DNA of 64,000 nucleotides from Escherichia coli (GTDB lineage: Bacteria > Pseudomonadota > Gammaproteobacteria > Enterobacterales > Enterobacteriaceae). The translations under genes and the position numbers were made by a program. Position 1 is the stretch's first letter, and every line of letters begins with the position of its first letter. The stretch lies in assembly GCF_013315695.1 (NCBI RefSeq), contig NZ_CP054353.1; one strand, written 5' to 3'. Below the pieces are notes generated by a model, which saw only the letters and a program-made list of their open reading frames with translations, was not told where the DNA came from and made no database searches. Shown here piece by piece: positions 15,938-64,000 of the stretch.

Positions 15938-17363
15938 TAATGCCGATCAGTTAAGGATCAGTTGACCGATCCAGTGGCTGTGTAAGAATCCGGAAACGCT
16001 CACTTGTTTCCGGATTTTTTTATGCACATTGGACAGGCTCTTGATCTGGTATCCCGTTACGATTCTCTGCGTAACCCACTGACTTCTCTGGGGGATTACC
16101 TCGACCCCGAACTCATCTCTCGTTGCCTTGCCGAATCAGGTACTGTAACGCTACGCAAGCGCCGTCTTCCCCTCGAAATGATGGTCTGGTGTATTGTTGG
16201 CATGGCGCTTGAGCGTAAAGAACCTCTTCACCAGATTGTGAATCGCCTGGACATCATGCTGCCGGGCAATCGCCCCTTCGTTGCCCCCAGTGCCGTTATT
16301 CAGGCCCGCCAGCGCCTGGGAAGTGAGGCTGTCCGCCGCGTGTTCACGAAAACAGCGCAGCTCTGGCATAACGCCACGCCGCATCCGCACTGGTGCGGCC
16401 TGACCCTGCTGGCCATCGATGGTGTGTTCTGGCGCACACCGGATACACCAGAGAACGATGCAGCCTTCCCCCGCCAGACACATGCCGGGAACCCGGCGCT
16501 CTACCCGCAGGTCAAAATGGTCTGCCAGATGGAACTGACCAGCCATCTGCTGACGGCTGCAGCCTTCGGCACGATGAAGAACAGCGAAAATGAGCTTGCT
16601 GAGCAACTTATAGAACAAACCGGCGATAACACTCTGACGTTAATGGATAAAGGTTATTACTCACTGGGACTGTTAAATGCCTGGAGCCTGGCGGGAGAAC
16701 ACCGCCACTGGATGATACCTCTCAGAAAGGGAGCGCAATATGAAGAGATCAGAAAACTGGGTAAAGGCGATCATCTGGTGAAGCTGAAAACCAGCCCGCA
16801 GGCACGAAAAAAGTGGCCGGGACTGGGAAATGAAGTGACAGCCCGCCTGCTGACCGTGACGCGCAAAGGAAAAGTCTGCCATCTGCTGACGTCGATGACG
16901 GACGCCATGCGCTTCCCCGGAGGAGAAATGGCGGATCTGTACAGTCATCGCTGGGAAATCGAACTGGGATACAGGGAGATAAAACAGACGATGCAACTGA
17001 GCAGGCTGACGCTGAGAAGTAAAAAACCGGAGCTTGTGGAGCAAGAGCTGTGGGGTGTCTTACTGGCTTATAATCTGGTGAGATATCAGATGATTAAAAT
17101 GGCGGAACATCTGAAAGGTTACTGGCCGAATCAACTGAGTTTCTCAGAATCATGCGGAATGGTGATGAGAATGCTGATGACATTGCAGGGCGCTTCACCG
17201 GGACGTATACCGGAGCTGATGCGCGATCTTGCAAGTATGGGACAACTTGTGAAATTACCGACAAGAAGGGAAAGGGCCTTCCCGAGAGTGGTAAAGGAGA
17301 GGCCCTGGAAATACCCCACAGCCCCGAAAAAGAGCCAGTCAGTTGCTTAACTGACTGGCATTA
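15938..17363 (+). mobile_element. IS4 insertion sequence, complete copy (1426 bp)
   Basis: Terminal inverted repeats taatgccgatcagttaag (left) and cttaactgactggcatta (right; 16 of 18 match when reverse-complemented); a single transposase ORF; flanked by an 11-bp direct repeat. Confidence 0.9.
16022..17350 (+). CDS. insG: IS4 transposase (DDE family)
   Basis: 442 aa from the ATG at 16022 ([14 protein letters not shown]...), recognised as IS4-family transposase; the supplied ORF starts 6 codons upstream. Confidence 0.85.
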
Positions 17364-30232: not shown

Positions 30233-30419
30233 TGATTATTTATTATCGTCATTAAGTTAGTCGTGGCATTTCGAATGCCTAGAACGGGCAACGCCGTCAA
30301 TGAAATGGATGTTAAGGCATCCAGACGTCTAAATCAATCAGGTTTATGCGAAGAGCACTTTCTTGCAGGTCGAAACATGCGATACTAGCGTCACATGCCT
30401 TATTAAGGAGCTATAAAAG

Positions 30420-30992
30420 GTGGCGAAGAGCGTACCCGCAATTTTTCTTGACCGTGATGGCACCATTAATGTCGATCACGGCTATGTCCATGAGATCGAC
30501 AACTTTGAATTTATCGACGGTGTTATTGACGCCATGCGCGAGCTAAAAAAAATGGGCTTTGCGCTGGTGGTAGTAACCAACCAGTCTGGCATTGCTCGCG
30601 GTAAATTTACTGAAGCACAGTTTGAAACGCTGACCGAGTGGATGGACTGGTCGCTGGCGGACCGCGATGTCGATCTGGATGGTATCTATTATTGCCCGCA
30701 TCATCCGCAGGGTAGTGTTGAAGAGTTTCGCCAGGTCTGCGACTGCCGCAAACCACATCCGGGGATGCTTTTATCGGCACGCGATTATTTGCATATTGAT
30801 ATGGCCGCTTCTTATATGGTGGGCGATAAATTAGAAGATATGCAGGCAGCGGCTGCGGCGAACGTGGGAACAAAAGTGCTGGTGCGTACGGGTAAACCTG
30901 TTACGCCTGAAGCAGAAAACGCGGCGGATTGGGTGTTAAATAGCCTGGCAGACCTGCCGCAAGCGATAAAAAAGCAGCAAAAACCGGCGTAA
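30420..30992 (+). CDS. gmhB: D,D-heptose 1,7-bisphosphate phosphatase
   Basis: 190-aa ORF with GTG start and HAD motif FLDRDGTIN. Confidence 0.92.
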
Positions 30993-31035
30993 TGATTAAA
31001 AGATGAGCGGTTGAAATAAAAATGCATTTTTCCGC

Positions 31036-31063
31036 TTGTCTTCCTGAAACGACTCCCTATAAT
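31036..31063 (+). promoter_or_regulatory. rRNA operon promoter P1 (sigma70)
   Basis: -35 ttgtct and -10 tataat separated by 16 bp, with an A/T-rich tract upstream (aaataaaaatgcattttt). Confidence 0.75.
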
Positions 31064-31145
31064 GCGCCTCCATCGACACGGCGGATGTGAATCACTTCAC
31101 ACAAACAGCCGGTTCGGTTGAAGAGAAAAATCCTGAAATTCAGGG

Positions 31146-31173
31146 TTGACTCTGAAAGAGGAAAGCGTAATAT
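31146..31173 (+). promoter_or_regulatory. rRNA operon promoter P2 (sigma70)
   Basis: -35 ttgact and -10 taatat separated by 16 bp. Confidence 0.7.
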
Positions 31174-31213
31174 ACGCCACCTCGCGACAGTGAGCTGAAA
31201 GCCGCGTCGCAAC

Positions 31214-31226
31214 TGCTCTTTAACAA
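31214..31226 (+). promoter_or_regulatory. boxA antitermination element in the rRNA leader
   Basis: tgctctttaacaa matches the rrn boxA consensus. Confidence 0.75.
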
Positions 31227-31357
31227 TTTATCAGACAATCTGTGTGGGCACTCGAAGATACGGATTCTTAACGTCGCAAGACGAAAAATGAATACCAAGT
31301 CTCAAGAGTGAACACGTAATTCATTACGAAGTTTAATTCTTTGAGCATCAAACTTTT

Positions 31358-37281: not shown

Positions 37282-37336
37282 GGTGATGCTGCCAACTTAC
37301 TGATTTAGTGTATGATGGTGTTTTTGAGGTGCTCCA

Positions 37337-37612
37337 GTGGCTTCTGTTTCTATCAGCTGTCCCTCCTGTTCAGCTACTGACGGGGTGGTGCGTAACGGCA
37401 AAAGCACCGCCGGACATCAGCGCTATCTCTGCTCTCACTGCCGTAAAACATGGCAACTGCAGTTCACTTACACCGCTTCTCAACCCGGTACGCACCAGAA
37501 AATCATTGATATGGCCATGAATGGCGTTGGATGCCGGGCAACAGCCCGCATTATGGGCGTTGGCCTCAACACGATTTTACGTCACTTAAAAAACTCAGGC
37601 CGCAGTCGGTAA
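37337..37612 (+). CDS. insA: IS1 InsA (transposition inhibitor; N-terminal part of InsAB' transposase)
   Basis: 91-aa ORF with zinc-finger cysteines (CPSC...CSHC). Confidence 0.92.
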
Positions 37613-38034
37613 CCTCGCGCATACAGCCGGGCAGTGACGTCATCGTCTGCGCGGAAATGGACGAACAGTGGGGCTATGTCGGGGCTAAATCGCGCCAGCG
37701 CTGGCTGTTTTACGCGTATGACAGGCTCCGGAAGACGGTTGTTGCGCACGTATTCGGTGAACGCACTATGGCGACGCTGGGGCGTCTTATGAGCCTGCTG
37801 TCACCCTTTGACGTGGTGATATGGATGACGGATGGCTGGCCGCTGTATGAATCCCGCCTGAAGGGAAAGCTGCACGTAATCAGCAAGCGATATACGCAGC
37901 GAATTGAGCGGCATAACCTGAATCTGAGGCAGCACCTGGCACGGCTGGGACGGAAGTCGCTGTCGTTCTCAAAATCGGTGGAGCTGCATGACAAAGTCAT
38001 CGGGCATTATCTGAACATAAAACACTATCAATAA
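37531..38034 (+). CDS. insB: IS1 InsB reading frame (expressed as InsAB' by -1 frameshift at the ttaaaaaac motif, 37588..37594)
   Basis: 167-aa ORF in the -1 frame relative to insA, overlapping its 3-prime end; slippery A6C sequence present. Confidence 0.88.
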
Positions 38035-52143: not shown

Positions 52144-52422
52144 TTACCCAAAGAGCGCCGCGTGAGTTCCAGTTCTCTCAAATCGTAAAAGTTTATCGGT
52201 AAGTTTGTAAATCAGGATCCAGTCCGGTTCGACATGAGCATCGCGATAACCTTTCCATGAACCTTGCAGCGGGTGGTCTTTATAAACAGCTGGAAGCAGT
52301 AAAGTATTATTGATAAGAAGCGTCATAAGATATTTCAATTTATTCATATCCTTATGACGCTTTTGTGCAAGTTTTACATCCTTTGAAAATTGTCCCGAGT
52401 ATTCAATATCCCTTTGAATCAT
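52144..52422 (-). CDS. yafQ: Type II toxin YafQ (RelE/ParE-fold mRNA interferase)
   Basis: 92-aa ORF immediately downstream of dinJ. Confidence 0.92.
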   Translation of the reverse strand: MIQRDIEYSGQFSKDVKLAQKRHKDMNKLKYLMTLLINNTLLLPAVYKDHPLQGSWKGYRDAHVEPDWILIYKLTDKLLRFERTGTHAALFG

Positions 52423-52424
52423 AT

Positions 52425-52685
52425 TTAAATTCCTAATTTATCAAATAAATCATCGGCGTCTTTGGCCTTATGAACACCAACGCCAGCTTCGCTGTTTTTG
52501 ATTGATTGAATAGTTAATTGATTAGGCTCGCGTAAATCAAACGGCAATGCCTTTTCACGCGCGACCTTTGTGAGGGTTATGCGAACCAGGTCAGAGATGG
52601 TCAGCCCCATCCCGGCCAGTACGTCCGCCGCCTGATTCTTCAGATCTTCATCGATTCGGGCGCGAACAAACGCGTTAGCAGCCAT
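52425..52685 (-). CDS. dinJ: Type II antitoxin DinJ
   Basis: 86-aa ORF (MAANAFVRARIDEDLKNQA...), 2 bp upstream of yafQ. Confidence 0.92.
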   Translation of the reverse strand: MAANAFVRARIDEDLKNQAADVLAGMGLTISDLVRITLTKVAREKALPFDLREPNQLTIQSIKNSEAGVGVHKAKDADDLFDKLGI

Positions 52686-52894: not shown

Positions 52895-53726
<832 letters not shown>

Positions 53727-53820: not shown

Positions 53821-54318
53821 ATGTCTGAATATCGTCGTTATTACATCAAGGGGGGAACATGGTTTTTCACGATAAATTTGCGGAATCGTCGAAGCCAACT
53901 TTTGACCACCCAGTACCAGACGCTCCGTAACGCCATTGTTAAAGTTAAGCGAGCCAGACCTTTTGAAATTAACGCCTGGGTAGTCTTGCCAGAGCATATG
54001 CACTGTATCTGGACATTACCTGAAAGCGATGATGATTTTTCCTCTCGCTGGCGTGAGATTAAAAAACAGTTCACTCAAACTTGCGAAATGAAAAATATCT
54101 GGCAACCGCGTTTTTGGGAGCACGCCATCCGCAATACCAAAGATTATCGCCATCATGTTGATTATATTTATATAAATCCAGTAAAACATGGCTGGGTAAA
54201 GCAAGTGAGTGATTGGCCATTCTCAACGTTCCATCGCGATGTCGCGAAAGGGTTATATCCCATCGATTGGGCGGGGGACGTAACGGATTTAAATGCTGGC
54301 GAGCGTATTATTTTATAA
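53821..54318 (+). CDS. rayT: REP-associated tyrosine transposase
   Basis: 165-aa ORF (IS200/IS605 TnpA-like) flanked on both sides by REP sequences. Confidence 0.9.
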   Translation: MSEYRRYYIKGGTWFFTINLRNRRSQLLTTQYQTLRNAIVKVKRARPFEINAWVVLPEHMHCIWTLPESDDDFSSRWREIKKQFTQTCEMKNIWQPRFWEHAIRNTKDYRHHVDYIYINPVKHGWVKQVSDWPFSTFHRDVAKGLYPIDWAGDVTDLNAGERIIL

Positions 54319-54326
54319 TTGTGCGC

Positions 54327-54436
54327 TGATGCCGGATGCGCTTACGCTTATCCAGCCTACGAATCGTGCCTTAACAGTAGGACGGATAAGGCGTTTACGC
54401 CGCATCCGGCAGTTGTGCACCGGTGCCGGATACCTA
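54327..54436. repeat. REP/BIME palindromic elements
   Basis: tgccggatgcgcttacgcttatccagcctac ... gtaggacggataaggcgtttacgccgcatccggc. Confidence 0.8.
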
Positions 54437-56527
54437 CATCAACGCCCCCATAATCTTCAACTCCAGCTCGTCCGGCACTTCGTTATACGACAGCACATGC
54501 AGCCCCGGTGCAAACAATCTCGCATAGCGCGCCAGCAAAGGGCGCAACTGCGGTGGCACCAGCAGCACAGGGTCTTTCCCCGCCGCTTTCATCTGCTCCT
54601 TCACCTGCGGCATCGTGTTCTGGAACTGGTTAAGCATATTCGGGTCCACCGGCACGCTGTCGAGCATCACTTTGCCGCCCTGTTGCGCCTGATTCACTAC
54701 GTTGGTCAGCAGATTTTCCAGCTCATTATTCAGCGTATACACCGTCAGCTCCTGTTTGCGAACGAACGGATGGGTAATGCTGCGCCGCAGCGCCAGGCGC
54801 ACATCGGCCGCCAGCAGAATATGATCTTTAGTCACCGCACTACTGGCGACCAGCACGGTGGCGATGGTGACGATATCGCGCAGGGAAACGCCTTCGGTCA
54901 GCAGCGTCCGGTACACTTTCAGCAACTGGCTGTAGTTGAGCGCCGCGCTCAAATCTTCCGCCAGGCGCGGTGCCATCGACGACAGGCGGTTATGCAACTG
55001 CGTGATGTCATCATAGTTAAATAATTCAGGAATATAGCTGCGCACAATCTTATTCACATGGGTGGCAATCACGCTGGCGCTGTCGATCACCTGATACCCC
55101 ATATTCAGCGCCTTCGCTTTCTGCGCAGGCTGGATCCAGGTGACCGGCATCCCATATGCCGGGTCATTCCCCAGTACGCCGTCAATCTCGCCGTAGGTTT
55201 CGCTGGAGGGCAACGCCATCAGTTTATCTGCCGGAATATCCGCTTCATCGGCCTTAATGCCGTTGATGAATATGGCGTACTGGCTGGGCTTGAGGCGGAA
55301 GTTTTCCCGAATACGGATCTCCGGCAGCAGCACGCCGTTGCCGTCGGAAATCACCTGCCGCACGCCGCGAATCCGCTGGGTGAGCGGGTTACCTTGGGCT
55401 TTATCGACCAGCGCCACCAGCTTGTAGCCGAGACTTAAGCTGATAGGCTCGATCAGCGGAATGGTTTCCCAACTGACCTGTTGCTCGCTGGTTTCGGTGA
55501 TGGTGCGGGTCAGTGTTTCGAGGCTTTTCTCTTCCGCCTCCGCCGCCTGCGGGCGTTTGCTCATCCGCCAGCCGGTAAAGCCAAGCAGGGCGCTGAACAG
55601 CAAAAATGGCAGATGCGGCATCCCCGGCACCACCGCCAGCACAAACATGATCCCGGTGGCGGTGTAGAGCACCGACGGGCTTGCCAGCAGCTGGTGGCGC
55701 ACGTCATGGGCGATATCGCCGTTGTCGCTGACGCGGGTGACGATAATTGCCGCCGCGGTGGAGAGCAGCAGGGACGGGATCTGCGCCACCAGGCCGTCGC
55801 CGATGGTCATCAGCACATATTGCTGGAAGGCGGCGTCGGCGCTCAGGTTGTATTTGAAGATGCCGATACAGACGCCGCCGATCAGGTTGATCGCCAGAAT
55901 CATCATCCCGGCGATGGCATCGCCGCGCACAAACTTCGATGCCCCGTCCATCGCGCCGTAGAAATCGGCCTCGCTGGCAACATCTTTACGCCGTGTTTGC
56001 GCCTGCGCCTGGTTGATCAATCCGGCGTTAAGATCGGCGTCAATCGCCATCTGCTTGCCGGGCATCGCGTCCAGGGTAAAGCGGGCAGAAACCTCGGAAA
56101 TACGCTCGGCCCCTTTGGTGACGACGATAAAGTTGATGATCATCAGGATGATAAACACCACAAAGCCGACGACAAAGTTGCCGCCAATCACCACCTGACC
56201 AAATGACTCAATCACCTTACCCGCCGCGCCTGCGCCGAGATGCCCGTGCAGCAGCACCACGCGCGTAGAAGCAACGTTAAGCGTCAGGCGCATTAAAGTG
56301 GTGATCAGCAAAATGGTCGGGAACAGGCTGAATTCCAGCGGTCGTTTCGCCGACACCGCCACCAGCAGCACCATCACCGCCAGCACAATGTTGAAGGTGA
56401 ACAGAATATCCAGCAGCGCAGGCGGCAGCGGCAGAATAACCATCGCCAGAATACAAAGTATAACCAGCGGTACGCCGAGATTACCGCCGCGCAGCAGCGC
56501 GAGGAACGATTTAGTTGTTTTCGCCAT
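54434..56527 (-). CDS. lfhA: Flagellar-type export apparatus protein, FlhA homologue (second flagellar system)
   Basis: 697-aa ORF with N-terminal polytopic membrane domain and FlhA-like cytoplasmic domain; intact. Confidence 0.85.
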   Translation of the reverse strand: MAKTTKSFLALLRGGNLGVPLVILCILAMVILPLPPALLDILFTFNIVLAVMVLLVAVSAKRPLEFSLFPTILLITTLMRLTLNVASTRVVLLHGHLGAGAAGKVIESFGQVVIGGNFVVGFVVFIILMIINFIVVTKGAERISEVSARFTLDAMPGKQMAIDADLNAGLINQAQAQTRRKDVASEADFYGAMDGASKFVRGDAIAGMMILAINLIGGVCIGIFKYNLSADAAFQQYVLMTIGDGLVAQIPSLLLSTAAAIIVTRVSDNGDIAHDVRHQLLASPSVLYTATGIMFVLAVVPGMPHLPFLLFSALLGFTGWRMSKRPQAAEAEEKSLETLTRTITETSEQQVSWETIPLIEPISLSLGYKLVALVDKAQGNPLTQRIRGVRQVISDGNGVLLPEIRIRENFRLKPSQYAIFINGIKADEADIPADKLMALPSSETYGEIDGVLGNDPAYGMPVTWIQPAQKAKALNMGYQVIDSASVIATHVNKIVRSYIPELFNYDDITQLHNRLSSMAPRLAEDLSAALNYSQLLKVYRTLLTEGVSLRDIVTIATVLVASSAVTKDHILLAADVRLALRRSITHPFVRKQELTVYTLNNELENLLTNVVNQAQQGGKVMLDSVPVDPNMLNQFQNTMPQVKEQMKAAGKDPVLLVPPQLRPLLARYARLFAPGLHVLSYNEVPDELELKIMGALM

Positions 56528-57650
56528 CCAGTTTAAGCACCTCTTTGGGAATGGAAATATGTCTGTTCAGGGCCGGGCGCGGCTGTGCGCCCTCGCGCCA
56601 GTGTTTCATTTGCAGGACGTAGGTCAGAACGTGGGCGATAGCCCGGTAAAGCTGAAACGGAATTTGTTGGTTCACCTGCGTGGTGTAGTAAACCGAGCGC
56701 GCCAGCCGCGGGAACTCGACCACTTCCACCTGATTCTCAGCGGCGACCTGGCGAATATAGAGGGCGATTTCATCGGTGCCTTTTGCCACCACAAACGGCG
56801 CGGCGGCGCGAGACTGGTCATACTGCAACGCCACGGCGTAGTGGGTCGGGTTGGTGATCACCACGTTGGCTTTCGGCACCACTTTGCGGATTTGCCCCAT
56901 CGCCAGCTGCCGTTGCAGCCGTCGCACGCGCGCCTTCACTTCCGGCTTGCCTTCCTGATTTTTGTACTCTTCTTTCAGCTCCTGCTTGGTCATCTTCAGC
57001 CCTTTGGTAAACAGGGCTTTCGCCAGCGGCACGTCGATAAGCGCAAAGAAGATAAACAGGATGACAAAGTTGCGCATCACGCTGGCGTAGAGCGACAAAC
57101 CCTCATTCATCGCCAGTTTGAACGGCAGCGCTTGCAGGCCGAGGAAGGCGGCAAAGTTATTGCGCAGGCTAATCCACAGCATCACCAGCACCACCACCGA
57201 CTTCGCCGTCATCTTTCCCGTTTCCGCCAGATGTTCACTGGAAAACAGCCGCCCAATCCCTTTTAACGGGCTAATTTTGCTGAAATCCGGGAGGATTTTT
57301 TTCGGCAGAAACAGCCAGCCGCCAGGCACCAGCGAGGAGAGCAGCGCAGCGGCGGGCATCGGCAGCAAGGTAAGAATAAACTTGCCGAGAATTAACAGGT
57401 GATGGCGCAGAAACTGGCCGATCACATCCGGGTTATTAATCTCCTGCGCGTACTGATGCACGCTGATAAAACTCTCACGCACAAAATCGGCATACCACGG
57501 GAAGCTGCTGGAGATCACCACAAACGCCGCAAACAGGCTCGCCGCCAGCCCCATATCCTTCGAGCGCGGCAGTTGCCCCTCTTCACGCGCTTTACGCAGC
57601 TTTTGCGCCGAGGGTTTCTCTGTTTTTTCTTCGCTGCTGCTATCCGCCAT
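56511..57650 (-). CDS. lfhB: Flagellar-type export apparatus protein, FlhB homologue
   Basis: 379-aa ORF with an FlhB-like N-terminus (MADSSSEEKTEKPSAQKLRKAREEGQ...). Confidence 0.85.
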   Translation of the reverse strand: MADSSSEEKTEKPSAQKLRKAREEGQLPRSKDMGLAASLFAAFVVISSSFPWYADFVRESFISVHQYAQEINNPDVIGQFLRHHLLILGKFILTLLPMPAAALLSSLVPGGWLFLPKKILPDFSKISPLKGIGRLFSSEHLAETGKMTAKSVVVLVMLWISLRNNFAAFLGLQALPFKLAMNEGLSLYASVMRNFVILFIFFALIDVPLAKALFTKGLKMTKQELKEEYKNQEGKPEVKARVRRLQRQLAMGQIRKVVPKANVVITNPTHYAVALQYDQSRAAAPFVVAKGTDEIALYIRQVAAENQVEVVEFPRLARSVYYTTQVNQQIPFQLYRAIAHVLTYVLQMKHWREGAQPRPALNRHISIPKEVLKLDGENN

Positions 57651-58422
57651 AGTGACCTTTCAGCGCGTCGAGTTGCTGCAACACAAAATTCGCCAGATGC
57701 AGATAGTGATCCGGCAGGTTGTAGAGCAGGGTGGCGAAGCAAACCAGCCCCGCCAGCATGTTGATGGGAAAGCCGAGCGAAAAAAGGTTCAGCGGCGGCG
57801 CAATGCGGTTAAGCAGGCCAAAGCAGCCCTGCACAATCAGCATGATAAAAGTGGTCGGCAGCGCCAGCAGTGATGCGGACGCCAGCACCCAGCTAAAGGC
57901 CAGCGCGATGGTGCGCAGGGGTTGCGGATGCAGCGCGTTGCCAATCGGCCAGTAGGTGAAGCCCTTATACAGCACGCTTACCAGCAGCAGATGCCCGTCC
58001 ATGGCAAAAAACAGCAGGATCGCGTAGACGTTAATTAACTCTGCCAGCACGGTTGTTGATGCGCCGCTGCTCGGGGCGTTCATCACCGCCATGCTCATCC
58101 CCATATTGAACGAGAGAATTTGCCCGGCCAGTTGCAGCGCCAGAAACAGAAACTGAAACATCAGCCCGAACAACATGCCCCATAATATTTGCTCCACCGT
58201 CAGGATCAGGCTATTGAGCGATAGCAGGTCGTGGGGAATGGGATGGGGGATCAACGGCGTGATGATGATCGCCAGCGCCAGCGACAATATAATCCGCACG
58301 CGCACGGTCAGGGCGCTGTTATCCAGCACCGGCACATAGCGCAGAAACGCCATAATGCGCACGAAGGGGAACCACAGCCCCAGCACCAGATCCATCAGTT
58401 GCGTAACGTCGCTTGTGCGCAT
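57640..58422 (-). CDS. lfiR: Flagellar-type export apparatus protein, FliR homologue
   Basis: About 260-aa polytopic membrane ORF from the internal Met; the supplied ORF extends to 58473. Confidence 0.8.
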   Translation of the reverse strand: MRTSDVTQLMDLVLGLWFPFVRIMAFLRYVPVLDNSALTVRVRIILSLALAIIITPLIPHPIPHDLLSLNSLILTVEQILWGMLFGLMFQFLFLALQLAGQILSFNMGMSMAVMNAPSSGASTTVLAELINVYAILLFFAMDGHLLLVSVLYKGFTYWPIGNALHPQPLRTIALAFSWVLASASLLALPTTFIMLIVQGCFGLLNRIAPPLNLFSLGFPINMLAGLVCFATLLYNLPDHYLHLANFVLQQLDALKGHYGG

Positions 58423-58423
58423 C

Positions 58424-58696
58424 TTAATGCACCAGCAGGGCGGCCTGACTAAACAGATGAATGCAGAGATCATGCAACTGGATAATCATCCATTTGCCGC
58501 ACACCCCCAGCACCACCAGCGTGACAATCAGCCTTGGCAAAAAGCTCAGGGTCTGTTCGTTAATCTGCGTCACCGCCTGGAACACGCTCACCAGCAGGCC
58601 GACCAGCAGGCTTGGCACCACCAGTACCGAAACCAGCAAAATCACTACTTTAATGCCGCTGGCGACAATGTCGGCGGCTACGTCTACGGTCAACAT
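58424..58696 (-). CDS. lfiQ: Flagellar-type export apparatus protein, FliQ homologue
   Basis: 90-aa two-helix membrane ORF. Confidence 0.82.
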   Translation of the reverse strand: MLTVDVAADIVASGIKVVILLVSVLVVPSLLVGLLVSVFQAVTQINEQTLSFLPRLIVTLVVLGVCGKWMIIQLHDLCIHLFSQAALLVH

Positions 58697-58698
58697 AA

Positions 58699-59451
58699 TC
58701 AGCCCAGCCCCAGCCCGCGAATGCTGGTGGTGAGCGTGCCGATGGTCAGCGACCAGCCGTCAATCAGCACAAACAGCATCAGTTTAAAGGGCAGCGAAAC
58801 AATCAGCGGCGACAGCATCATCATCCCCATCGCCATCAGTACGCTGGCGACAATCAGGTCGATAACCAGAAACGGGATGTAAATCATAAAGCCAATCTGG
58901 AAAGCGGTTTTCAGCTCGCTCAGTACATAGGCGGGCACCACGATGGAGAGATCCTGGTCGGCGGCATTGCCCTTCGCGCCGCCGATGGTCATGATTTGCG
59001 CCATCGCTTTTTTGTCGGTCTGCGCCAGCATAAAGCGTTTTAGCGGCGTCGCGGCGGTGCTTAACGCATCGGTCAGGGTAATCTGATCGTTTTCAAACGG
59101 CACTACCGCGTGGTCGTAAATATTGAGCCAGATGGGGCGCATTACCAGCAGGGTGAGTGAGAGCGCAATACCTATCAGAATGCGGTTCGGCGGCGTTTGT
59201 TGCAGCCCCAGCGCCTGGCGCAGCAGCGACAGCACGATAATAAAGCGCGTAAAGCAGGTCATCATCAGCACCATCGTCGGCAGCAAACCGACGAGGGTCA
59301 TCAGAATCAGTACCTGAATTTTGACGCTGTACTCCTGAGTGTTGCCGTGGGTCACCACGTTAAGTAGCGCAATATCGCCACCCTGGGCCAACGCCAGCGG
59401 CGCAAGCGCCAGCAGCCCAAGGCCCAGCGCCAGTTGAGTGCGGCGTTTCAT
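58699..59451 (-). CDS. lfiP: Flagellar-type export apparatus protein, FliP homologue
   Basis: 250-aa ORF with signal peptide and conserved FliP C-terminal region. Confidence 0.85.
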   Translation of the reverse strand: MKRRTQLALGLGLLALAPLALAQGGDIALLNVVTHGNTQEYSVKIQVLILMTLVGLLPTMVLMMTCFTRFIIVLSLLRQALGLQQTPPNRILIGIALSLTLLVMRPIWLNIYDHAVVPFENDQITLTDALSTAATPLKRFMLAQTDKKAMAQIMTIGGAKGNAADQDLSIVVPAYVLSELKTAFQIGFMIYIPFLVIDLIVASVLMAMGMMMLSPLIVSLPFKLMLFVLIDGWSLTIGTLTTSIRGLGLG

Positions 59452-59819
59452 GGTGCCAGGTCGTTGATATCGCGGGTGTTAAACTCCAGCACGCGCAGGC
59501 CGTACTTCTCGTTGACCACCACCACTTCCGCTTTGCCCAGCAGGATATTGTTCACTTTAATATCCAGCGGCTCCCCGGCGAGTTTATCCAGCTCAATCAC
59601 CGTGTCGTCGTCGATGTTAAGCAGGTCGGCTAACATAATTTCCACCGACGACACTTCCAGCGTTAAGGTCACCGGAATGCGTTTCAGCAGCGTCATCGAG
59701 TCGGAAAAGCGGTCTTCCAGGCGGGTGACCAGCGTTTCGGCGTCGGCGGATTTCGTGACAGGCGCAACTTCATCGGCGAGGCCAAAATCCCCGGCTAAAA
59801 TATCGTCTTGTTTACTCAT
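59448..59819 (-). CDS. lfiN: Flagellar switch protein, FliN homologue
   Basis: About 124 aa from the internal Met, with C-terminal SpoA-like domain; the supplied ORF extends to 59879 and would overlap lfiM by 68 bp. Confidence 0.78.
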   Translation of the reverse strand: MSKQDDILAGDFGLADEVAPVTKSADAETLVTRLEDRFSDSMTLLKRIPVTLTLEVSSVEIMLADLLNIDDDTVIELDKLAGEPLDIKVNNILLGKAEVVVVNEKYGLRVLEFNTRDINDLAP

Positions 59820-60663
59820 GGCTATTCTCATTCTTGCCCGCCAGCTCCGACAAAAACAGTTTGTCTTTGTCTTCCACAATCAGGGCGCTAAATAATTCAG
59901 ATTGCCCAATCGCCACCGGGAACGTTTCTCCCAGCGAGATGGGTAAAATATCCCCGGCTTTTATCTGCGCCAGATCGGCGACATTCATCGATAGCTCGGC
60001 GATTTTGACGTTCAGGGTCAGCGGCAGGGAGCGGATGATTTCTTTAATCAGGGCCGGTTTATTAACGGATTTCGCCACCTGCTGCGGTTTACTGTGCTCG
60101 CTGTGGCGGATCAGATTCAAAATAAAATCGGTGTGGGCGTCGTCGAGCAAAATACGAAAACTGCTCTCTTCATCGCCCGCAAGGGTAAAGGTTAATTGAT
60201 ACGCCCAGTGGGTAATCACCGTGCTGCTGTCCAGTTTTAATTTCAGCGCAATACCGGAGGTTTGCAGATTAAAGATCAGCGTGCAGATATCCAGCGCGAG
60301 TCGGTTCTTTAACCGCGTTTCGGTTTTGGTCGGCAGCCCGTTATGCGCTTTCGCCTCTTCAAGAGAGGACTCCAGACCATAAAAATTGCCCAGCAGCATT
60401 AACAGCAAGGAGCGATCAATATCAAACGCCAGATGCCCGACCTGGGAAACCATCAGTTCGGCGTTTTTATTAATAATATCCATTTCGCAGCCAATCTTTT
60501 TTAGGGTGATATTGCTGCGATGCTTTTTGAGAAAGTAGCTGCCAAGATGCGAATCAATCACGTCAAAATTCCCCGTAAACAGGGTCGGCAGGCGATGGTA
60601 GGGGCGTCCGAGCCGATTACCTTCTAATTTAAAGATGCCTGGCGTTTTACTGTACTTCAGCAT
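59812..60663 (-). CDS. lfiM: Flagellar switch protein, FliM homologue
   Basis: 283-aa ORF at the head of the minus-strand lfiMNPQR-lfhBA block. Confidence 0.75.
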   Translation of the reverse strand: MLKYSKTPGIFKLEGNRLGRPYHRLPTLFTGNFDVIDSHLGSYFLKKHRSNITLKKIGCEMDIINKNAELMVSQVGHLAFDIDRSLLLMLLGNFYGLESSLEEAKAHNGLPTKTETRLKNRLALDICTLIFNLQTSGIALKLKLDSSTVITHWAYQLTFTLAGDEESSFRILLDDAHTDFILNLIRHSEHSKPQQVAKSVNKPALIKEIIRSLPLTLNVKIAELSMNVADLAQIKAGDILPISLGETFPVAIGQSELFSALIVEDKDKLFLSELAGKNENSHE

Positions 60664-60842
60664 GGCTTACTTTCTCTGCTGTAATGGTATGGGCGTTGTT
60701 GTGCACGCAAATCCGGCAGTGACACAAGGTGAGGTATTAAATAGAGGGGGCGTGAAAGGGGCAAATTATTAATAGGGTGAAAAAATAATTAAATTATTAA
60801 AGGGCGAGGTATCGGGCATCGTCATAAAACATTGCACGAATT

Positions 60843-60925
60843 GTAGGCCTGATAAGAGGCGCAGCGTCGCATCAGGCATCGGTGCACAATTGCCGGATGG
60901 CGGCGTAAACGCCTTATCCGGCCTA
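60843..60925. repeat. REP/BIME palindromic elements in the lfiM-lafK divergent intergenic region
   Basis: gtaggcctgataagaggcgcagcgtcgcatcaggc and gccggatggcggcgtaaacgccttatccggcctac. Confidence 0.8.
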
Positions 60926-61050
60926 CGGTTCTAACTCATTGTTTATCAACAAATAATATTTTTATTATCGTTTAATTCGAACTTGTTAATCCCGCCGGTG
61001 ATACGCTTCAGAACATCCTGTTTTCTGTCGCTACTTATATCGTTCACCCT

Positions 61051-62037
61051 ATGTCTGAACTTATTGCAACTGCCGCTTCCAGCATTAACGCTTTTACTCT
61101 GGCAAAGCGTGTCGCCGCCTTTAACGTGCCGGTGCTCATTCAGGGCGAAACCGGCGCGGGCAAAGAATGCGTGGCGAAATATATTCACACCGTAGCCTTT
61201 GGTGAAAATGAAAGCGCACCCTATGTCGGCGTGAACTGCGCGGCGATCCCGGAAAATATGCTGGAATCCACGCTATTTGGCTATGACAAAGGCGCATTTA
61301 CCGGCGCAATTGCCAGCGTGCCAGGAAAAATGGAACTGGCAAATAACGGCTCCTTATTGCTCGATGAAATTGGTGAAATGCCGCTGGCGCTACAGGCCAA
61401 AATATTACGCGTGTTGCAGGAACAACAGGTTGAGCGATTAGGCAGCAACCGACAAATCAAACTCAATTTTCGCCTGATTGCCTGCACCAATAAAAACCTG
61501 GAGCAGGAAGTTGCCGCCGGACGTTTTCGTGAAGATCTCTATTATCGTCTGGCGGTTATCCCTATTACCATGCCGCCACTGCGTGAACGCCTGAACGATA
61601 TTATTCCGCTGGCGGAGTCATTTATTAAAAAATACTCCACGGTGCTGGTGAAAAATATCACCCTGTCCGAATCCACCCGCCGTGCGCTGCTTAATTACCG
61701 CTGGCCCGGTAACGTGCGCCAACTGGAAAACGCCATTCAGCGGGGAATGATTTTAAATCGCGACGGCGTAATTTACCCGGATGCATTAGGCCTGCTGGAA
61801 ACGGACGTTGCTGACCACAGCGAACTGCAATGGCCTGTTCAGCCCGCCGTCCACATTGCCGAAACCAGCGATTTGGGCCAGCACGGACGAAGCGCGCAAT
61901 ATCAATATATCGCCGACCTGATGCGTAAATATCAGGGCAACCGCAGCAAAATCGCCGACCTGTTAGGCATTACCCCGCGCGCACTGCGCTATCGACTGGC
62001 CTCCATGCGCAAGCAAGGTATCGAAGTTTTCTCCTGA
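61051..62037 (+). CDS. lafK: Sigma54-dependent transcriptional activator (AAA+ and HTH domains only)
   Basis: 328-aa ORF; Walker A GETGAGKE at about residue 32, GAFTGA sigma54-contact motif, C-terminal HTH; no receiver or other N-terminal domain. Confidence 0.8.
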   Translation: MSELIATAASSINAFTLAKRVAAFNVPVLIQGETGAGKECVAKYIHTVAFGENESAPYVGVNCAAIPENMLESTLFGYDKGAFTGAIASVPGKMELANNGSLLLDEIGEMPLALQAKILRVLQEQQVERLGSNRQIKLNFRLIACTNKNLEQEVAAGRFREDLYYRLAVIPITMPPLRERLNDIIPLAESFIKKYSTVLVKNITLSESTRRALLNYRWPGNVRQLENAIQRGMILNRDGVIYPDALGLLETDVADHSELQWPVQPAVHIAETSDLGQHGRSAQYQYIADLMRKYQGNRSKIADLLGITPRALRYRLASMRKQGIEVFS

Positions 62038-62051
62038 CCCGGAAGTTAAAA

Positions 62052-62393
62052 ATGAGCATTACCACAATCAACAGCACCATGCAGGCGCAAATCATGCAGG
62101 ACGTGCAGCGGATGCAGGCCAACGCCCAGGCACCGGTGCTGCCCGCCATGACCTTCAGTTCCACCGACCCGGACGTTTCGTTTAACCGCATTATGAGCGG
62201 TGCGCTCGGTCATGTTGACCAGTTCCAGCAGGTGGCGGAGCAGCAGCAAACGGCTGTCGACACGGGCAAAAGTGATGACCTTGCCGGGGCGATGATCGCC
62301 AGCCAGCAGGCGTCGCTCTCTTTCTCCGCGCTGGTGCAGGTGCGCAACAAAATCGCCACCGGATTTAACGATCTGATGAGTATGTCGATCTAA
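62052..62393 (+). CDS. lfiE: Flagellar hook-basal body protein, FliE homologue
   Basis: 113-aa ORF with conserved FliE C-terminus (...VQVRNKIATGFNDLMSMSI). Confidence 0.8.
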   Translation: MSITTINSTMQAQIMQDVQRMQANAQAPVLPAMTFSSTDPDVSFNRIMSGALGHVDQFQQVAEQQQTAVDTGKSDDLAGAMIASQQASLSFSALVQVRNKIATGFNDLMSMSI

Positions 62394-62397
62394 CCCT

Positions 62398-64000
62398 ATG
62401 AATGCACAAATAAAGAAGTTAACCCAGGCGTTTCCGGCGTTTCGACTGCGTCTTGCAGATAACAAACGCTGGGCATTGATGGCGGGAGTGGGGCTTGCCG
62501 TTGCGGCGACGGCGATTATCGTCAGCGTACTGTGGACCGGTAATCGCGGCTACGTCTCGCTCTACGGACGCCAGGAAAATCTGCCCGTGTCGCAGATTGT
62601 CACCGTGCTGGATGGCGAAAAGCTCAGCTACCGCATCGACCCGCAAAGCGGGCAGATTCTGGTGCCGGAAGATGAACTGTCGAAAACGCGCATGACCCTT
62701 GCTGCCAAAGGCGTGCAGGCGATCTTGCCCAGCGGCTACGAGCTGATGGACAAAGACGAAGTGCTCGGCAGCAGCCAGTTCGTGCAGAACGTGCGCTACA
62801 AACGCAGCCTCGAAGGGGAGCTGGCGCAGAGCATTATGTCGCTGGACGCGGTGGAGAGCGCGCGGGTGCATCTGGCGCTCAACGAAGAGAGCTCGTTTGT
62901 GGTCAGCGATGAGCCGCAAAACAGCGCCTCGGTGGTGGTGCGTCTGCATTACGGCGCGAAGCTGAATATGGACCAGGTGAACGCCATTGTGCATCTGGTT
63001 TCCGGCAGCATTCCGGGGCTGCACGCCAGCAAAGTTAGCGTCGTCGATCAGGCGGGAAATCTGCTGACCGACGGCATTGGCGCGGGCGAAGCGGTTTCAG
63101 CCGCTACCCGTAAACGCGATCAGATCCTCAAAGATATTCAGGACAAAACCCGCGCCAGCGTGGCGAACGTGCTGGATTCGCTGGTCGGCAGCGGGAATTA
63201 CCGCGTCAGCGTCATGCCGGATCTCGACCTCAGTAATATCGATGAAACTCAGGAACACTACGGCGACGCGCCGAAAATCAACCGCGAAGAAAACGTGCTG
63301 GACAGCGATACCAATCAGGTGGCGATGGGTGTGCCCGGTTCGCTTAGCAACCGCCCGCCGGTTGCACCTAATCAGGTTACTAACGGCGCGATGCCCGCCG
63401 ACGAAAATCGCTCGCCGGAAGCCCTTTCGAAACACAGCGAAAGCAAGCGCGATTACTCTTACGACCGCAGCGTCCAGCATATTCAGCATCCCAGCTTTAC
63501 GGTGAAACGCCTCAACGTGGCGGTGGTGCTCAATCAAAACGCTCCGGCGCTGAAAAACTGGAAGCCGGAGCAGACCACGCAGCTTACCGCGCTGCTGAAC
63601 AATGCCGCCGGGATCGACGCGCAACGTGGAGACAATCTCACCTTATCGCTGCTTAACTTTGTCCCGCAGGCGGTGCCGGTCGAACCAATTATTCCGTTGT
63701 GGAAAGATGACAGCGTGCTGGCCTGGGTGCGGCTGATTGGCTGCGGCCTGCTGGCGCTGTTGTTGCTGTTCTTTGTGGTGCGCCCGGTAATGAAACGACT
63801 GACGGCGGTACGTGCGCCGGTTATCACACCAGAACCGGAAGCTGTCAGCGAACCGTGGATTGCCATGCCGGAAGAGGAACGCAAAAACGTCGATCTGCCG
63901 TCGCTGCCCGGCGATGACAGCCTGCCGTCCCAGAGTTCCGGCCTCGAAGTAAAACTCGAGTTCCTGCAAAAACTGGCCATGAGCGACACCGATCGCGTAG
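62398..64000 (+). CDS. lfiF: Flagellar MS-ring protein, FliF homologue (3-prime end cut by window edge)
   Basis: Open frame from the ATG at 62398 to the window end (over 530 codons) with N-terminal and late transmembrane segments typical of FliF; absent from the supplied ORF track, presumably because no stop codon lies inside the window. Confidence 0.8.
   Translation, partial: MNAQIKKLTQAFPAFRLRLADNKRWALMAGVGLAVAATAIIVSVLWTGNRGYVSLYGRQENLPVSQIVTVLDGEKLSYRIDPQSGQILVPEDELSKTRMTLAAKGVQAILPSGYELMDKDEVLGSSQFVQNVRYKRSLEGELAQSIMSLDAVESARVHLALNEESSFVVSDEPQNSASVVVRLHYGAKLNMDQVNAIVHLVSGSIPGLHASKVSVVDQAGNLLTDGIGAGEAVSAATRKRDQILKDIQDKTRASVANVLDSLVGSGNYRVSVMPDLDLSNIDETQEHYGDAPKINREENVLDSDTNQVAMGVPGSLSNRPPVAPNQVTNGAMPADENRSPEALSKHSESKRDYSYDRSVQHIQHPSFTVKRLNVAVVLNQNAPALKNWKPEQTTQLTALLNNAAGIDAQRGDNLTLSLLNFVPQAVPVEPIIPLWKDDSVLAWVRLIGCGLLALLLLFFVVRPVMKRLTAVRAPVITPEPEAVSEPWIAMPEEERKNVDLPSLPGDDSLPSQSSGLEVKLEFLQKLAMSDTDRV

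What the first reader, a model, noticed from the sequence alone, without database searches (positions are those of the whole stretch)
54434..64000. Intact genes of a second, lateral-flagella-like system (Flag-2-type) at the rayT boundary
Seven contiguous minus-strand ORFs with short overlaps encode homologues of FlhA, FlhB, FliR, FliQ, FliP, FliN and FliM. A divergent unit follows, encoding a sigma54-type AAA+ activator, FliE and FliF; the FliF ORF runs off the window and is missing from the supplied ORF track. The block sits where, to my recollection, K-12 carries only lfhA/lafU pseudogene remnants beside rayT, and the primary flagellar regulon maps elsewhere. It therefore looks like a strain-variable second flagellar export/basal-body module. 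From memory it corresponds to the described Flag-2 locus of a minority of E. coli (for example enteroaggregative strain 042), so it is accessory and worth attention but not undescribed. All ten ORFs look intact here, so the locus may be functional if the downstream part is also complete.
Basis: partly seen in the sequence, partly recalled or inferred. Interest (0 to 1): 0.7.

Follow-up and report, generated by a model that had tools for sequence, protein, structure and literature searches.

The report
Known Flag-2 second flagellar gene cluster
This stretch is the first third of Flag-2, a second, lateral-type flagellar gene cluster already described in about a quarter of E. coli strains; it is intact here, but it is a known accessory locus and not a new one.

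Summary
Window 54434-64000 carries lfhA, lfhB, lfiR, lfiQ, lfiP, lfiN and lfiM on the minus strand. lafK, lfiE and lfiF lie divergently on the plus strand; lfiF runs off the window 53 nt before its end. This is "cluster 1" of the published E. coli Flag-2 locus.

- **Match to Flag-2:** the ten proteins are 96-99% identical to those of strain 042, with essentially the same lengths.
- **Not a copy of the primary flagellum:** they are only 31-49% identical to K-12's primary flagellar proteins.
- **Lateral type:** they match the order and orientation of a Vibrio campbellii lateral-type cluster, at equal or higher identity.
- **K-12 state:** K-12 keeps only lfhA' and lafU' remnants; its deletion begins at window 56138.
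- **Frequency:** 1272 of 5426 complete E. coli genomes (23%) hold this block.

The window is identical from 39697 to 64000 to isolate AF3, whose whole 38-kb locus (lfhA to lafU) is annotated intact. A sister isolate, MSB1_4I, has a nonsense codon in lfiE and a deletion in lfgI. dN/dS against 042 is 0.04-0.19, which indicates purifying selection. Expression has not been shown in E. coli; it was not detected in strain EC958.

Verdict: already known, low novelty.

The parts
53821..54318 (+). rayT (REP-associated tyrosine transposase). It is the conserved left neighbour of the Flag-2 locus and not part of the flagellar system.
   Evidence: ORF; annotated rayT in the near-identical genomes and in K-12.
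54320..54431 (.). REP elements filling the 115-nt spacer between rayT and the lfhA stop codon.
   Evidence: REP motif hit at 54377-54393; inverted repeats; sequence read. The spacer length differs between strains: 115 nt here, 223 nt in K-12, 438 nt in 042.
54434..56527 (-). lfhA, the FlhA-type export-gate protein (697 aa). The K-12 deletion breakpoint lies inside it, at 56137/56138.
   Evidence: TIGR01398 773.7 bits, above the cut-off of 772.1. 98.9% identical to 042 LfhA, 44.8% to K-12 FlhA, 60% to the Vibrio campbellii lateral-type FlhA. Breakpoint.
56511..57650 (-). lfhB, the FlhB-type export switch protein (379 aa).
   Evidence: TIGR00328 343 bits. 97.4% identical to 042; 39% to K-12 FlhB.
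57640..58422 (-). lfiR, FliR export-gate subunit (260 aa from the ATG at 58422; the longest ORF reaches 58473).
   Evidence: TIGR01400 170.9 bits, above the cut-off. 98.5% identical to 042 with the same start.
58424..58696 (-). lfiQ, FliQ export-gate subunit (90 aa).
   Evidence: TIGR01402 80 bits. 98.9% identical to 042.
58699..59451 (-). lfiP, FliP export-gate subunit (250 aa). It overlaps lfiN by 4 nt, so there is no fliO between them.
   Evidence: TIGR01103 243.7 bits, above the cut-off. 98.4% identical to 042. Coordinates.
59448..59819 (-). lfiN, FliN C-ring protein (123 aa from the ATG at 59819; the longest ORF reaches 59879).
   Evidence: TIGR02480 82.9 bits. 97.6% identical to 042.
59812..60663 (-). 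lfiM, a short and divergent FliM-type C-ring protein (283 aa) that lacks the N-terminal CheY-binding peptide.
   Evidence: Pfam detects only FliMN_C, residues 210-269. A family profile reaches canonical FliM proteins over positions 83-276. 98.9% identical to 042. Sequence.
60664..61050 (.). Divergent intergenic control region (387 nt). It is AT-rich and holds a REP pair (BIME) at about 60843-60926. No convincing sigma-54 promoter was found. A weak sigma-28-like motif lies at 60834-60809 on the minus strand.
   Evidence: Sequence. GC dips to 0.47. Rfam naRNA4/BIME hit at 60846-60923(-), 72.6 bits. REP motif hits. Promoter scans.
61051..62037 (+). lafK, a sigma-54-dependent activator (328 aa) made of an AAA+ domain and an HTH domain only, with no receiver domain.
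   Evidence: Pfam: Sigma54_activat 6-172, AAA_lid 178-246, HTH_8 284-317. Walker A GETGAGKE and the GAFTGA loop are present. 96.3% identical to 042. 47% identical over its full length to the Vibrio campbellii LafK, which is 444 aa with a receiver domain.
62052..62393 (+). lfiE, FliE rod adaptor (113 aa). It is intact here; sister isolate MSB1_4I has a TAG at codon 26 (window 62127).
   Evidence: TIGR00205 73.9 bits. 99.1% identical to 042. SNP found.
62398..64000 (+). lfiF, FliF MS-ring protein. The first 534 of 551 codons are present; the frame runs off the window.
   Evidence: TIGR00206 210 bits, cut-off 129.75. No stop codon. Full length is 1656 nt in relatives.

Best explanation
**What it is.** The region is cluster 1 of the E. 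coli Flag-2 locus. This ancestral, strain-variable gene cluster for a second, lateral-type flagellum sits between rayT and dinB.

**What the window encodes.**
- The flagellar type III export gate: LfhA, LfhB, LfiP, LfiQ, LfiR.
- Two C-ring proteins: LfiM and LfiN.
- The MS ring (LfiF) and the rod adaptor (LfiE).
- The system's own regulator, LafK.

**Shown here.** Gene identities, intactness, location, and the relationship to strain 042 and to a Vibrio lateral-type cluster. Also shown: near-consensus sigma-54 promoters in front of lfgB and lafB in near-identical genomes, a LafK without a receiver domain but with an intact ATPase and GAFTGA loop, and purifying selection on all ten genes.

**Inferred, by analogy with the Vibrio parahaemolyticus lateral hierarchy.**
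1. lafK-lfiEFGHIJ is transcribed first, from an unidentified promoter that is probably sigma-70 dependent and probably silenced, in the AT-rich divergent region.
2. LafK has no receiver domain, so it is active as soon as it is made. With RpoN it turns on the rod/hook operon (lfgB...) and the lafB operon.
3. The lafB operon carries the sigma-28 factor LafS, which then turns on flagellin lafA and the late genes.
4. The LfhA/B-LfiPQR gate assembles inside the LfiF ring and exports rod, hook and filament subunits.
5. LfiM lacks the CheY-binding N-terminus, so the motor is probably not switched by chemotaxis signalling.

**Functional state.** In this lineage the locus is genetically complete. It is therefore probably capable of building a flagellum under conditions not yet known.
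For: - **Family assignments:**
- **Match to strain 042:** 96-99% protein identity and equal lengths.
- **Published architecture:** lfhAB-lfiRQPNM-lafK-lfiEFGHIJ (PMC6993521).
- **Location and K-12 remnant:**
- **Frequency:** 1272 of 5426 genomes, in line with about 20-24% in the literature.
- **Vibrio comparison:** V. campbellii has the same ten genes in the same divergent layout. Identity equals or exceeds that to the K-12 primary proteins for the eight proteins that hit in both comparisons, for example FlhA 60% against 45%, FliP 62% against 49%, FliE 57% against 31%.
- **Sigma-54 promoters:** TGGCACGGCAATTGCT lies 36 nt upstream of lfgB and TGGCACGCCTTTTGCC lies 31 nt upstream of lafB in strain MS 21-1. 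The same sites are reported independently for strain PCN033 (PMC4578781).
- **LafK:** motifs intact and no receiver domain.
- **Selection:** dN/dS 0.035-0.19 for all ten genes against 042.
- **Complete locus in relatives:** the whole locus is annotated intact in AF3, which is identical to the window over 39697-64000, and in MS 21-1.
- **Regulatory model:** the V. parahaemolyticus hierarchy as summarised in PMC4481668.
Against: - **No expression shown.** Nothing here shows expression or function. In ST131 strain EC958 the Flag-2 flagellin was not detected and a lafA mutant kept its motility (PMC4637896).
- **Known inactivation.** Strain 042 itself is inactivated by a frameshift in lfgC.
- **Lesions in a close relative.** Sister isolate MSB1_4I, 3 SNPs away over this stretch, has a nonsense codon in lfiE and a deletion of roughly 240 bp in lfgI. 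The locus is therefore dispensable in this clone.
- **Downstream state unknown.** The window's own strain is not identified, so the state of its downstream 28 kb is unknown.
- **Promoters not found.** I found no sigma-54 promoter for the lfiM-lfhA operon and no clear promoter for lafK. How the export-gate operon is switched on is therefore not explained.
- **LfiM partly unresolved.** Its middle domain could not be confirmed structurally; the AlphaFold model has pLDDT 44.9.
Confidence: 0.93

Rival explanations
1. The block is genetically intact but phenotypically silent. It is an ancestral relic that E. coli no longer uses and is in the course of losing, so the intact ORFs in the window have no present function.
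For: - About 77% of complete E. coli genomes have lost the block, and strains without the locus keep the lfhA'/lafU' deletion scar, as K-12 does.
- EC958 shows no LafA and no Flag-2 motility.
- 042 carries the lfgC frameshift.
- MSB1_4I, nearly identical to the window, has two fresh lesions.
- The divergent control region is AT-rich and holds a REP pair, with no recognisable promoter.
Against: - dN/dS of 0.035-0.19 across all ten genes, at dS of 0.06-0.24 from 042, means the proteins were under selection for most of the time since the lineages split.
- AF3 and MS 21-1 have every gene intact.
- 78% of enterobacterial Flag-2 loci keep the full set of 39 genes.
- Sigma-54 promoter sequences are conserved.
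Confidence: 0.35
2. The apparatus is used mainly as a protein secretion machine or adhesion organelle rather than for motility, as De Maayer and colleagues postulated for enterobacteria that already have a working primary flagellum.
For: The literature proposes this on the basis of cargo genes found in Flag-2 variable regions. The export gate encoded in the window is the part such a role would need.
Against: - The near-identical genomes keep the complete set of hook, filament, stator and sigma-28 genes. Secretion alone would not require these.
- No candidate effector gene is seen in the window.
- Nothing was tested here.
Confidence: 0.05
3. The genes are a duplicated copy of the primary fli/flh genes, or belong to a non-flagellar type III secretion system (injectisome).
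For: FlhA, FlhB and FliPQR are homologous to the injectisome proteins SctV, SctU and SctRST, and those models do give secondary hits.
Against: - Identity to the K-12 primary proteins is only 31-49%.
- Flagellar models outscore the injectisome models for every protein, for example FlhA 773.7 bits against SctV 583.9 bits, which is below that model's cut-off.
- FliE, FliF and FliM/FliN are present, and the locus continues into hook, flagellin and stator genes.
Confidence: 0.01

Closest known systems
[quoted passage not shown] First described in enteroaggregative strain 042 (Ren et al. 2005, J Bacteriol 187:1430; not held in the library, cited through PMC6993521, PMC4637896 and PMC2808357).
   Same: Same chromosomal site (rayT ... 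dinB), same gene order and orientation, 96.3-99.1% protein identity and the same protein lengths. The intergenic lfiM-lafK region has the same length, 387 nt.
   Different: - About 4% nucleotide divergence, up to 6.4% in lafK.
- LafK is 328 aa here against 326 aa in 042.
- The rayT-lfhA spacer is shorter: 115 nt against 438 nt.
- 042 carries an lfgC frameshift, whereas lfgC is annotated intact in the window's closest relatives.
Lateral flagellar (Laf) system of Vibrio, modelled on V. parahaemolyticus. Compared here with the cluster on the 2.06-Mb replicon of V. campbellii LJC015 (NZ_CP050465.1).
   Same: - fliM-fliN-fliP-fliQ-fliR-flhB-flhA lie on one strand, with lafK-fliE-fliF divergent.
- There is no fliO.
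- FliM is short and divergent: 272 aa in Vibrio, 283 aa here, each scoring about 30 bits to the FliM model.
- A sigma-54 activator heads the fliE operon.
- Identity is 35-62%.
   Different: - The Vibrio LafK is 444 aa with an N-terminal receiver-type domain. The E. coli LafK and all its enterobacterial orthologues start directly at the AAA+ domain.
- Vibrio has a MotY-like gene between lafK and fliM. E. coli has only a 387-nt spacer with a REP pair at that position.
Primary (Flag-1) peritrichous flagellum of E. coli K-12: flhBA and fliE-fliR.
   Same: The same protein families and the same functional parts: export gate, C ring, MS ring, FliE.
   Different: - Identity is only 31-49%, and FliM is not detectable by BLAST.
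- Flag-1 has fliO; Flag-2 does not.
- Flag-1 genes are dispersed and are controlled by FlhDC rather than by a sigma-54 activator.
- FliM of Flag-1 carries the CheY-binding N-terminus, which LfiM lacks.

Membership tests
E. coli Flag-2 locus | Chromosomal position between rayT (yafM) and dinB | tested here: met
   rayT lies 115 nt from the lfhA stop codon in the window. In AF3, which is identical to the window over 39697-64000, the locus ends with lafU next to dinB.
E. coli Flag-2 locus | Cluster 1 gene order lfhAB-lfiRQPNM / lafK-lfiEFGHIJ | tested here: met
   The ten genes in the window are in this order. lfiG, lfiH, lfiI and lfiJ follow in the near-identical genomes. The published order is given.
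E. coli Flag-2 locus | Orthology to the strain 042 reference proteins | tested here: met
   96.3-99.1% identity, with equal lengths except LafK at 328 against 326 aa.
E. coli Flag-2 locus | Distinct from the primary flagellar genes | tested here: met
   31-49% identity to the K-12 proteins.
Gammaproteobacterial lateral flagella (Laf type) | Closer in sequence and synteny to a Vibrio lateral cluster than to the enteric primary flagellum | tested here: met
   The layout is identical in V. campbellii. Identity is equal or higher for each of the eight proteins that hit in both comparisons. V. parahaemolyticus itself was not compared.
Gammaproteobacterial lateral flagella (Laf type) | LafK/sigma-54 control of middle genes, then sigma-28 control of late genes | tested here: inconclusive
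   Near-consensus sigma-54 promoters lie upstream of lfgB and lafB, and a sigma-28 gene is present in the near-identical genomes. No sigma-54 promoter was found for the lfiM operon. There are no expression data.
Gammaproteobacterial lateral flagella (Laf type) | Produces lateral flagella used for surface or viscous motility | not testable with these tools
   This needs microscopy and motility assays. Published attempts in EC958 were negative.
Bacterial enhancer-binding proteins (LafK) | AAA+ sigma-54 interaction domain with Walker A, Walker B and the GAFTGA loop, plus a C-terminal HTH | tested here: met
   Pfam PF00158 at 1.2e-63 and HTH_8 at 2.3e-8. GETGAGKE, GAFTGA and LLLDEIGE were read in the sequence.
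Bacterial enhancer-binding proteins (LafK) | N-terminal regulatory (receiver) domain, as in the Vibrio LafK | tested here: not met
   The AAA+ domain starts at residue 6. The orthologues of 324-348 aa listed lack PF00072. The Vibrio protein has it at residues 7-113. LafK therefore works like a PspF-type, domain-minimal activator.
FliM (LfiM) | C-terminal FliN-like (SpoA) domain | tested here: met
   PF01052 at residues 210-269. It aligns to FliM residues 245-292.
FliM (LfiM) | Middle (CheC-like) FliM domain | tested here: inconclusive
   Pfam PF02154 is not detected. A family profile does hit two canonical FliM proteins over profile positions 83-264 and 106-276, at E of about 5e-6 and 1e-5 in 1.8 billion sequences. 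The structure model was too poor to use, with pLDDT 44.9.
FliM (LfiM) | N-terminal CheY-P binding peptide (LSQxEIDALL) | tested here: not met
   The N-terminus reads MLKYSKTPGIFKLEGNRLGRPYH and contains no such motif. This was judged by inspection only.

The most novel reading that the evidence does not exclude
In this lineage (isolates AF3 and MS 21-1 and the window's strain) Flag-2 is complete. It could be a working second flagellum or export machine, switched on by a receiver-less and therefore signal-independent LafK. LafK's own transcription would be the only control point, possibly silenced through the AT-rich, REP-containing divergent promoter region. If so, this clone would be a natural system in which to show, for the first time, what Flag-2 does in E. 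coli.
Probability: 0.3. Interest if true: 0.45.

Novelty: already known. Interest (0 to 1): 0.15.

Why it matters
The finding adds one more intact copy of a well-catalogued accessory locus, so it carries little weight in itself. The open question around it is old: why about a quarter of E. coli strains keep a costly 38-kb second flagellar system under purifying selection when nobody has seen it expressed in E. coli.

Two results here give that question a practical handle, though not a discovery. First, close relatives of this strain include fully intact loci (AF3, MS 21-1) alongside a freshly damaged one (MSB1_4I). Second, LafK lacks any sensory domain, so simple lafK induction should be enough to test the system.

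Tried and rejected
- **Sigma-54 promoters in the window.** I looked for sites in front of lfiM and lafK with a consensus search and a weighted scan. None was convincing. The only strong sites lie outside the window, upstream of lfgB, lafB and a hypothetical gene. A sigma-28-like motif upstream of lfiM (12 of 16 matches) is no better than chance hits elsewhere in the locus.
- **Sigma-70 and terminator scan.** Counts equal the shuffled expectation, so it is uninformative.
- **Proving LfiM is a FliM.** A PDB sequence search with the single protein found nothing. A profile search hit only the C-terminal domain. hhalign against K-12 FliM aligned only 48 columns. The AlphaFold model was unusable, with pLDDT 44.9, so I ran no fold search. 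The word-indexed homologue search stayed within Enterobacterales. Only the exhaustive profile search linked the family to canonical FliM proteins.
- **Ren et al. 2005 (PMC545627).** The paper is not held in the library, so it is cited only through later papers.
- **Literature search by gene names.** The results were swamped by unrelated words.
- **Duplicate-of-primary and injectisome readings.** Both were rejected.
- **Apparent 359-bp insertion in hits H2 and H5.** This was an artefact of piece-joining. The gene layout in AF3 is the same as in MSB1_4I, and the alignment to the window has no gaps.

Full report
**1. Observation**

The ORF list shows seven tightly packed minus-strand frames:
- 54434-56527
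- 56511-57650
- 57640-58473
- 58424-58696
- 58699-59451
- 59448-59879
- 59812-60663

After a 387-nt gap come two plus-strand frames, 61051-62037 and 62052-62393. A frame opening at 62398 stays open for 534 codons to the window end.

NCBIfam identifies them as FlhA (773.7 bits, above the curated cut-off), FlhB, FliR, FliQ, FliP, FliN, a weak FliM/FliN-family protein, a sigma-54 AAA+ activator, FliE and FliF. No frame has an internal stop.

Three refinements apply.
- The real starts of lfiR and lfiN are probably the ATGs at 58422 and 59819. These are shared with strain 042 and with the PGAP annotation, and give 260 aa and 123 aa.
- The FliM label rests on weak similarity.
- lfiF lacks its last 53 nt in the window.

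**2. Source and context**

The window is an ordinary E. coli chromosome segment running frr ... dnaE ... rrnH ... dnaQ ... fadE ... rayT.

| Isolate | Relation to the window |
|---|---|
| MSB1_4I (NZ_LR898874.1) | 99.98% identical over all 64 kb |
| AF3 (NZ_OZ547117.1), blood culture | identical from 39697 to 64000 |
| MS 21-1 | 8 SNPs over 54000-64000 |

The window's own strain is not identified. It belongs to this small clone: only 7 genomes match the 10-kb block at 99% identity or more.

**3. Identity**

Strain 042 is the reference for Flag-2. It has the same genes at the same site, and the ten window proteins are 96.3-99.1% identical to them with matching lengths. [quoted passage not shown]

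Identity to K-12's primary FlhA, FlhB, FliR, FliQ, FliP, FliN, FliE and FliF is only 31-49%, and FliM is not detected.

K-12 has rayT-lfhA'-lafU'-dinB with both Flag-2 genes as pseudogenes. Its lfhA remnant aligns to the window only up to 56137. It then joins lafU through a 6-nt overlap, a deletion of about 35.7 kb.

In the collection of complete genomes, 1272 of 5426 (23%) cover at least 80% of window 54000-64000. Published estimates are about 20-24%.

**4. Lateral-flagella relationship, tested directly**

A tblastn search of LfhA against the plasmid collection found a 2.06-Mb Vibrio campbellii replicon at 60% identity. All ten window proteins map there in the same arrangement: fliM-N-P-Q-R-flhB-A on one strand and lafK-fliE-fliF divergent.

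| Protein | Identity to V. campbellii | Identity to K-12 primary |
|---|---|---|
| LfhA / FlhA | 60% | 45% |
| LfhB / FlhB | 43% | 39% |
| LfiR / FliR | 36% | 35% |
| LfiQ / FliQ | 60% | 43% |
| LfiP / FliP | 62% | 49% |
| LfiN / FliN | 60% | 44% |
| LfiM / FliM | 39% (C-terminus only) | no hit |
| LafK | 47% | no counterpart |
| LfiE / FliE | 57% | 31% |
| LfiF / FliF | 35% | 34% |

Every value equals or exceeds the identity to the K-12 primary protein.

Both systems lack fliO, and both have a short, divergent FliM. A metagenomic relative of LfiM shows the same fliM-N-P-Q-R-flhB order.

There are two differences.
- The Vibrio LafK is 444 aa with a receiver-type N-terminal domain. The E. coli protein begins at the AAA+ domain, as do its listed enterobacterial orthologues of 324-348 aa.
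- Vibrio has a MotY-like gene between lafK and fliM, which is absent here.

**5. LfiM**

Pfam sees only the C-terminal FliN-like domain. PDB and hhalign comparisons align only that part. The AlphaFold model was too poor to use.

An exhaustive profile search found a family of proteins of about 270-300 aa. It also found, at E of about 1e-5, two canonical FliM proteins matched over profile positions 83-276. LfiM is therefore a divergent FliM.

Its N-terminus has no CheY-binding peptide. A published note says lateral FliG and FliM sit on long branches and that lateral motors are non-chemotactic (PMC8042155), which fits.

**6. How it probably works**

The window encodes the export gate, part of the C ring, the MS ring, FliE and the regulator. 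LafK has an intact Walker A, GAFTGA loop and Walker B.

In MS 21-1, near-consensus sigma-54 promoters lie at three places:
- 36 nt upstream of lfgB
- 31 nt upstream of lafB
- 34 nt upstream of a hypothetical gene in the glycosylation region

The first two are also reported for strain PCN033. The lafB operon includes a FliA-type sigma factor. This fits the Vibrio parahaemolyticus hierarchy, LafK/sigma-54 then sigma-28.

The cascade is inferred, not shown. I found no sigma-54 promoter for the lfiM-lfhA operon and no clear promoter for lafK. The divergent region is AT-rich and holds a REP pair that matches Rfam naRNA4. Because LafK has no sensory domain, control is presumably at the level of its synthesis.

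**7. Functional state**

*Evidence for function:*
- dN/dS against 042 is 0.035-0.19 for all ten genes.
- AF3 and MS 21-1 have every Flag-2 gene from lfhA to lafU annotated intact.

*Evidence against:*
- MSB1_4I is three SNPs from the window over this stretch. It has CAG changed to TAG at lfiE codon 26 (window 62127) and a deletion of roughly 240 bp in lfgI.
- EC958 shows no LafA and no Flag-2 motility.
- 042 is frameshifted in lfgC.

Whether this strain expresses the system cannot be told from sequence.

**8. Verdict**

This is a correct identification of a known, previously surveyed accessory locus. Novelty: already known. Interest is low. The residual interest is the long-standing question of what Flag-2 does in E. 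coli. The intact and damaged sister isolates, together with the receiver-less LafK, offer a simple experimental route to that question.

Noticed in passing
window 62127 (lfiE codon 26); L001 44085-44936 (lfgI in MSB1_4I): Sister isolate MSB1_4I differs from the window by three SNPs in 54000-64000. One of them turns CAG into TAG in lfiE. It also has a deletion of roughly 240 bp that truncates lfgI, with a 16-nt overlap at the junction. AF3 and MS 21-1 have both genes intact. This looks like fresh, independent decay within one clone.
   Followed up: yes
window 60846-60923 (-), 53644-53721 (+), 54320-54431: REP pairs (BIMEs) flank rayT on both sides, and one sits inside the lfiM-lafK divergent control region. 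Two of them score above the Rfam gathering threshold for naRNA4 (RF02564). The one between lfiM and lafK is on the lfiM strand and would be in the lfiM leader if transcription starts upstream of it.
   Followed up: partly
window 61051-62037 (lafK); L012 7007-8341 (-): The E. coli LafK and its listed enterobacterial orthologues of 324-348 aa lack the N-terminal receiver domain that the Vibrio campbellii LafK (444 aa) has. A few metagenomic relatives of about 462 aa, at 61-73% identity, do carry PF00072.
   Followed up: partly
L006 (MS 21-1), upstream of the 930-nt hypothetical gene at 30331-31260: A near-consensus sigma-54 promoter (CGGCACGCTTATTGCA, 34 nt from the start codon) precedes a hypothetical gene next to the large glycosyltransferase in the variable region. 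Putative flagellin-modification genes may therefore belong to the LafK regulon.
   Followed up: no
window about 37336-38033 and about 16004-17350: By correspondence with MSB1_4I, an IS1 copy interrupts dkgB just downstream of the rrnH operon, and an IS4 copy sits between accA and ldcC. Both map by an alignment with a single gap, so they appear to be present in the window as well.
   Followed up: partly
window 52144-52685: The dinJ-yafQ toxin-antitoxin pair lies between dpaA and yafL here and in K-12. It is absent from that position in strain 042.
   Followed up: no
L006 7434-9191 (MS 21-1): In MS 21-1 an ISEc53 transposase gene and a ClbS/DfsB-family gene are inserted between lafU and dinB, at the right edge of the Flag-2 locus. 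They are absent in AF3 and MSB1_4I.
   Followed up: no
window 60834-60809 (-): A weak sigma-28-like motif (CAATGTTT-N10-CCCGATAC, 12 of 16 matches) lies 145 nt upstream of the lfiM start. It is no stronger than chance matches elsewhere in the locus.
   Followed up: partly
protein P0087 (446 aa, E. coli ECZU08): A database entry fuses LafK with a FliE domain (PF02049). This suggests stop-codon loss or a frameshift at the lafK-lfiE junction in some strains.
   Followed up: no
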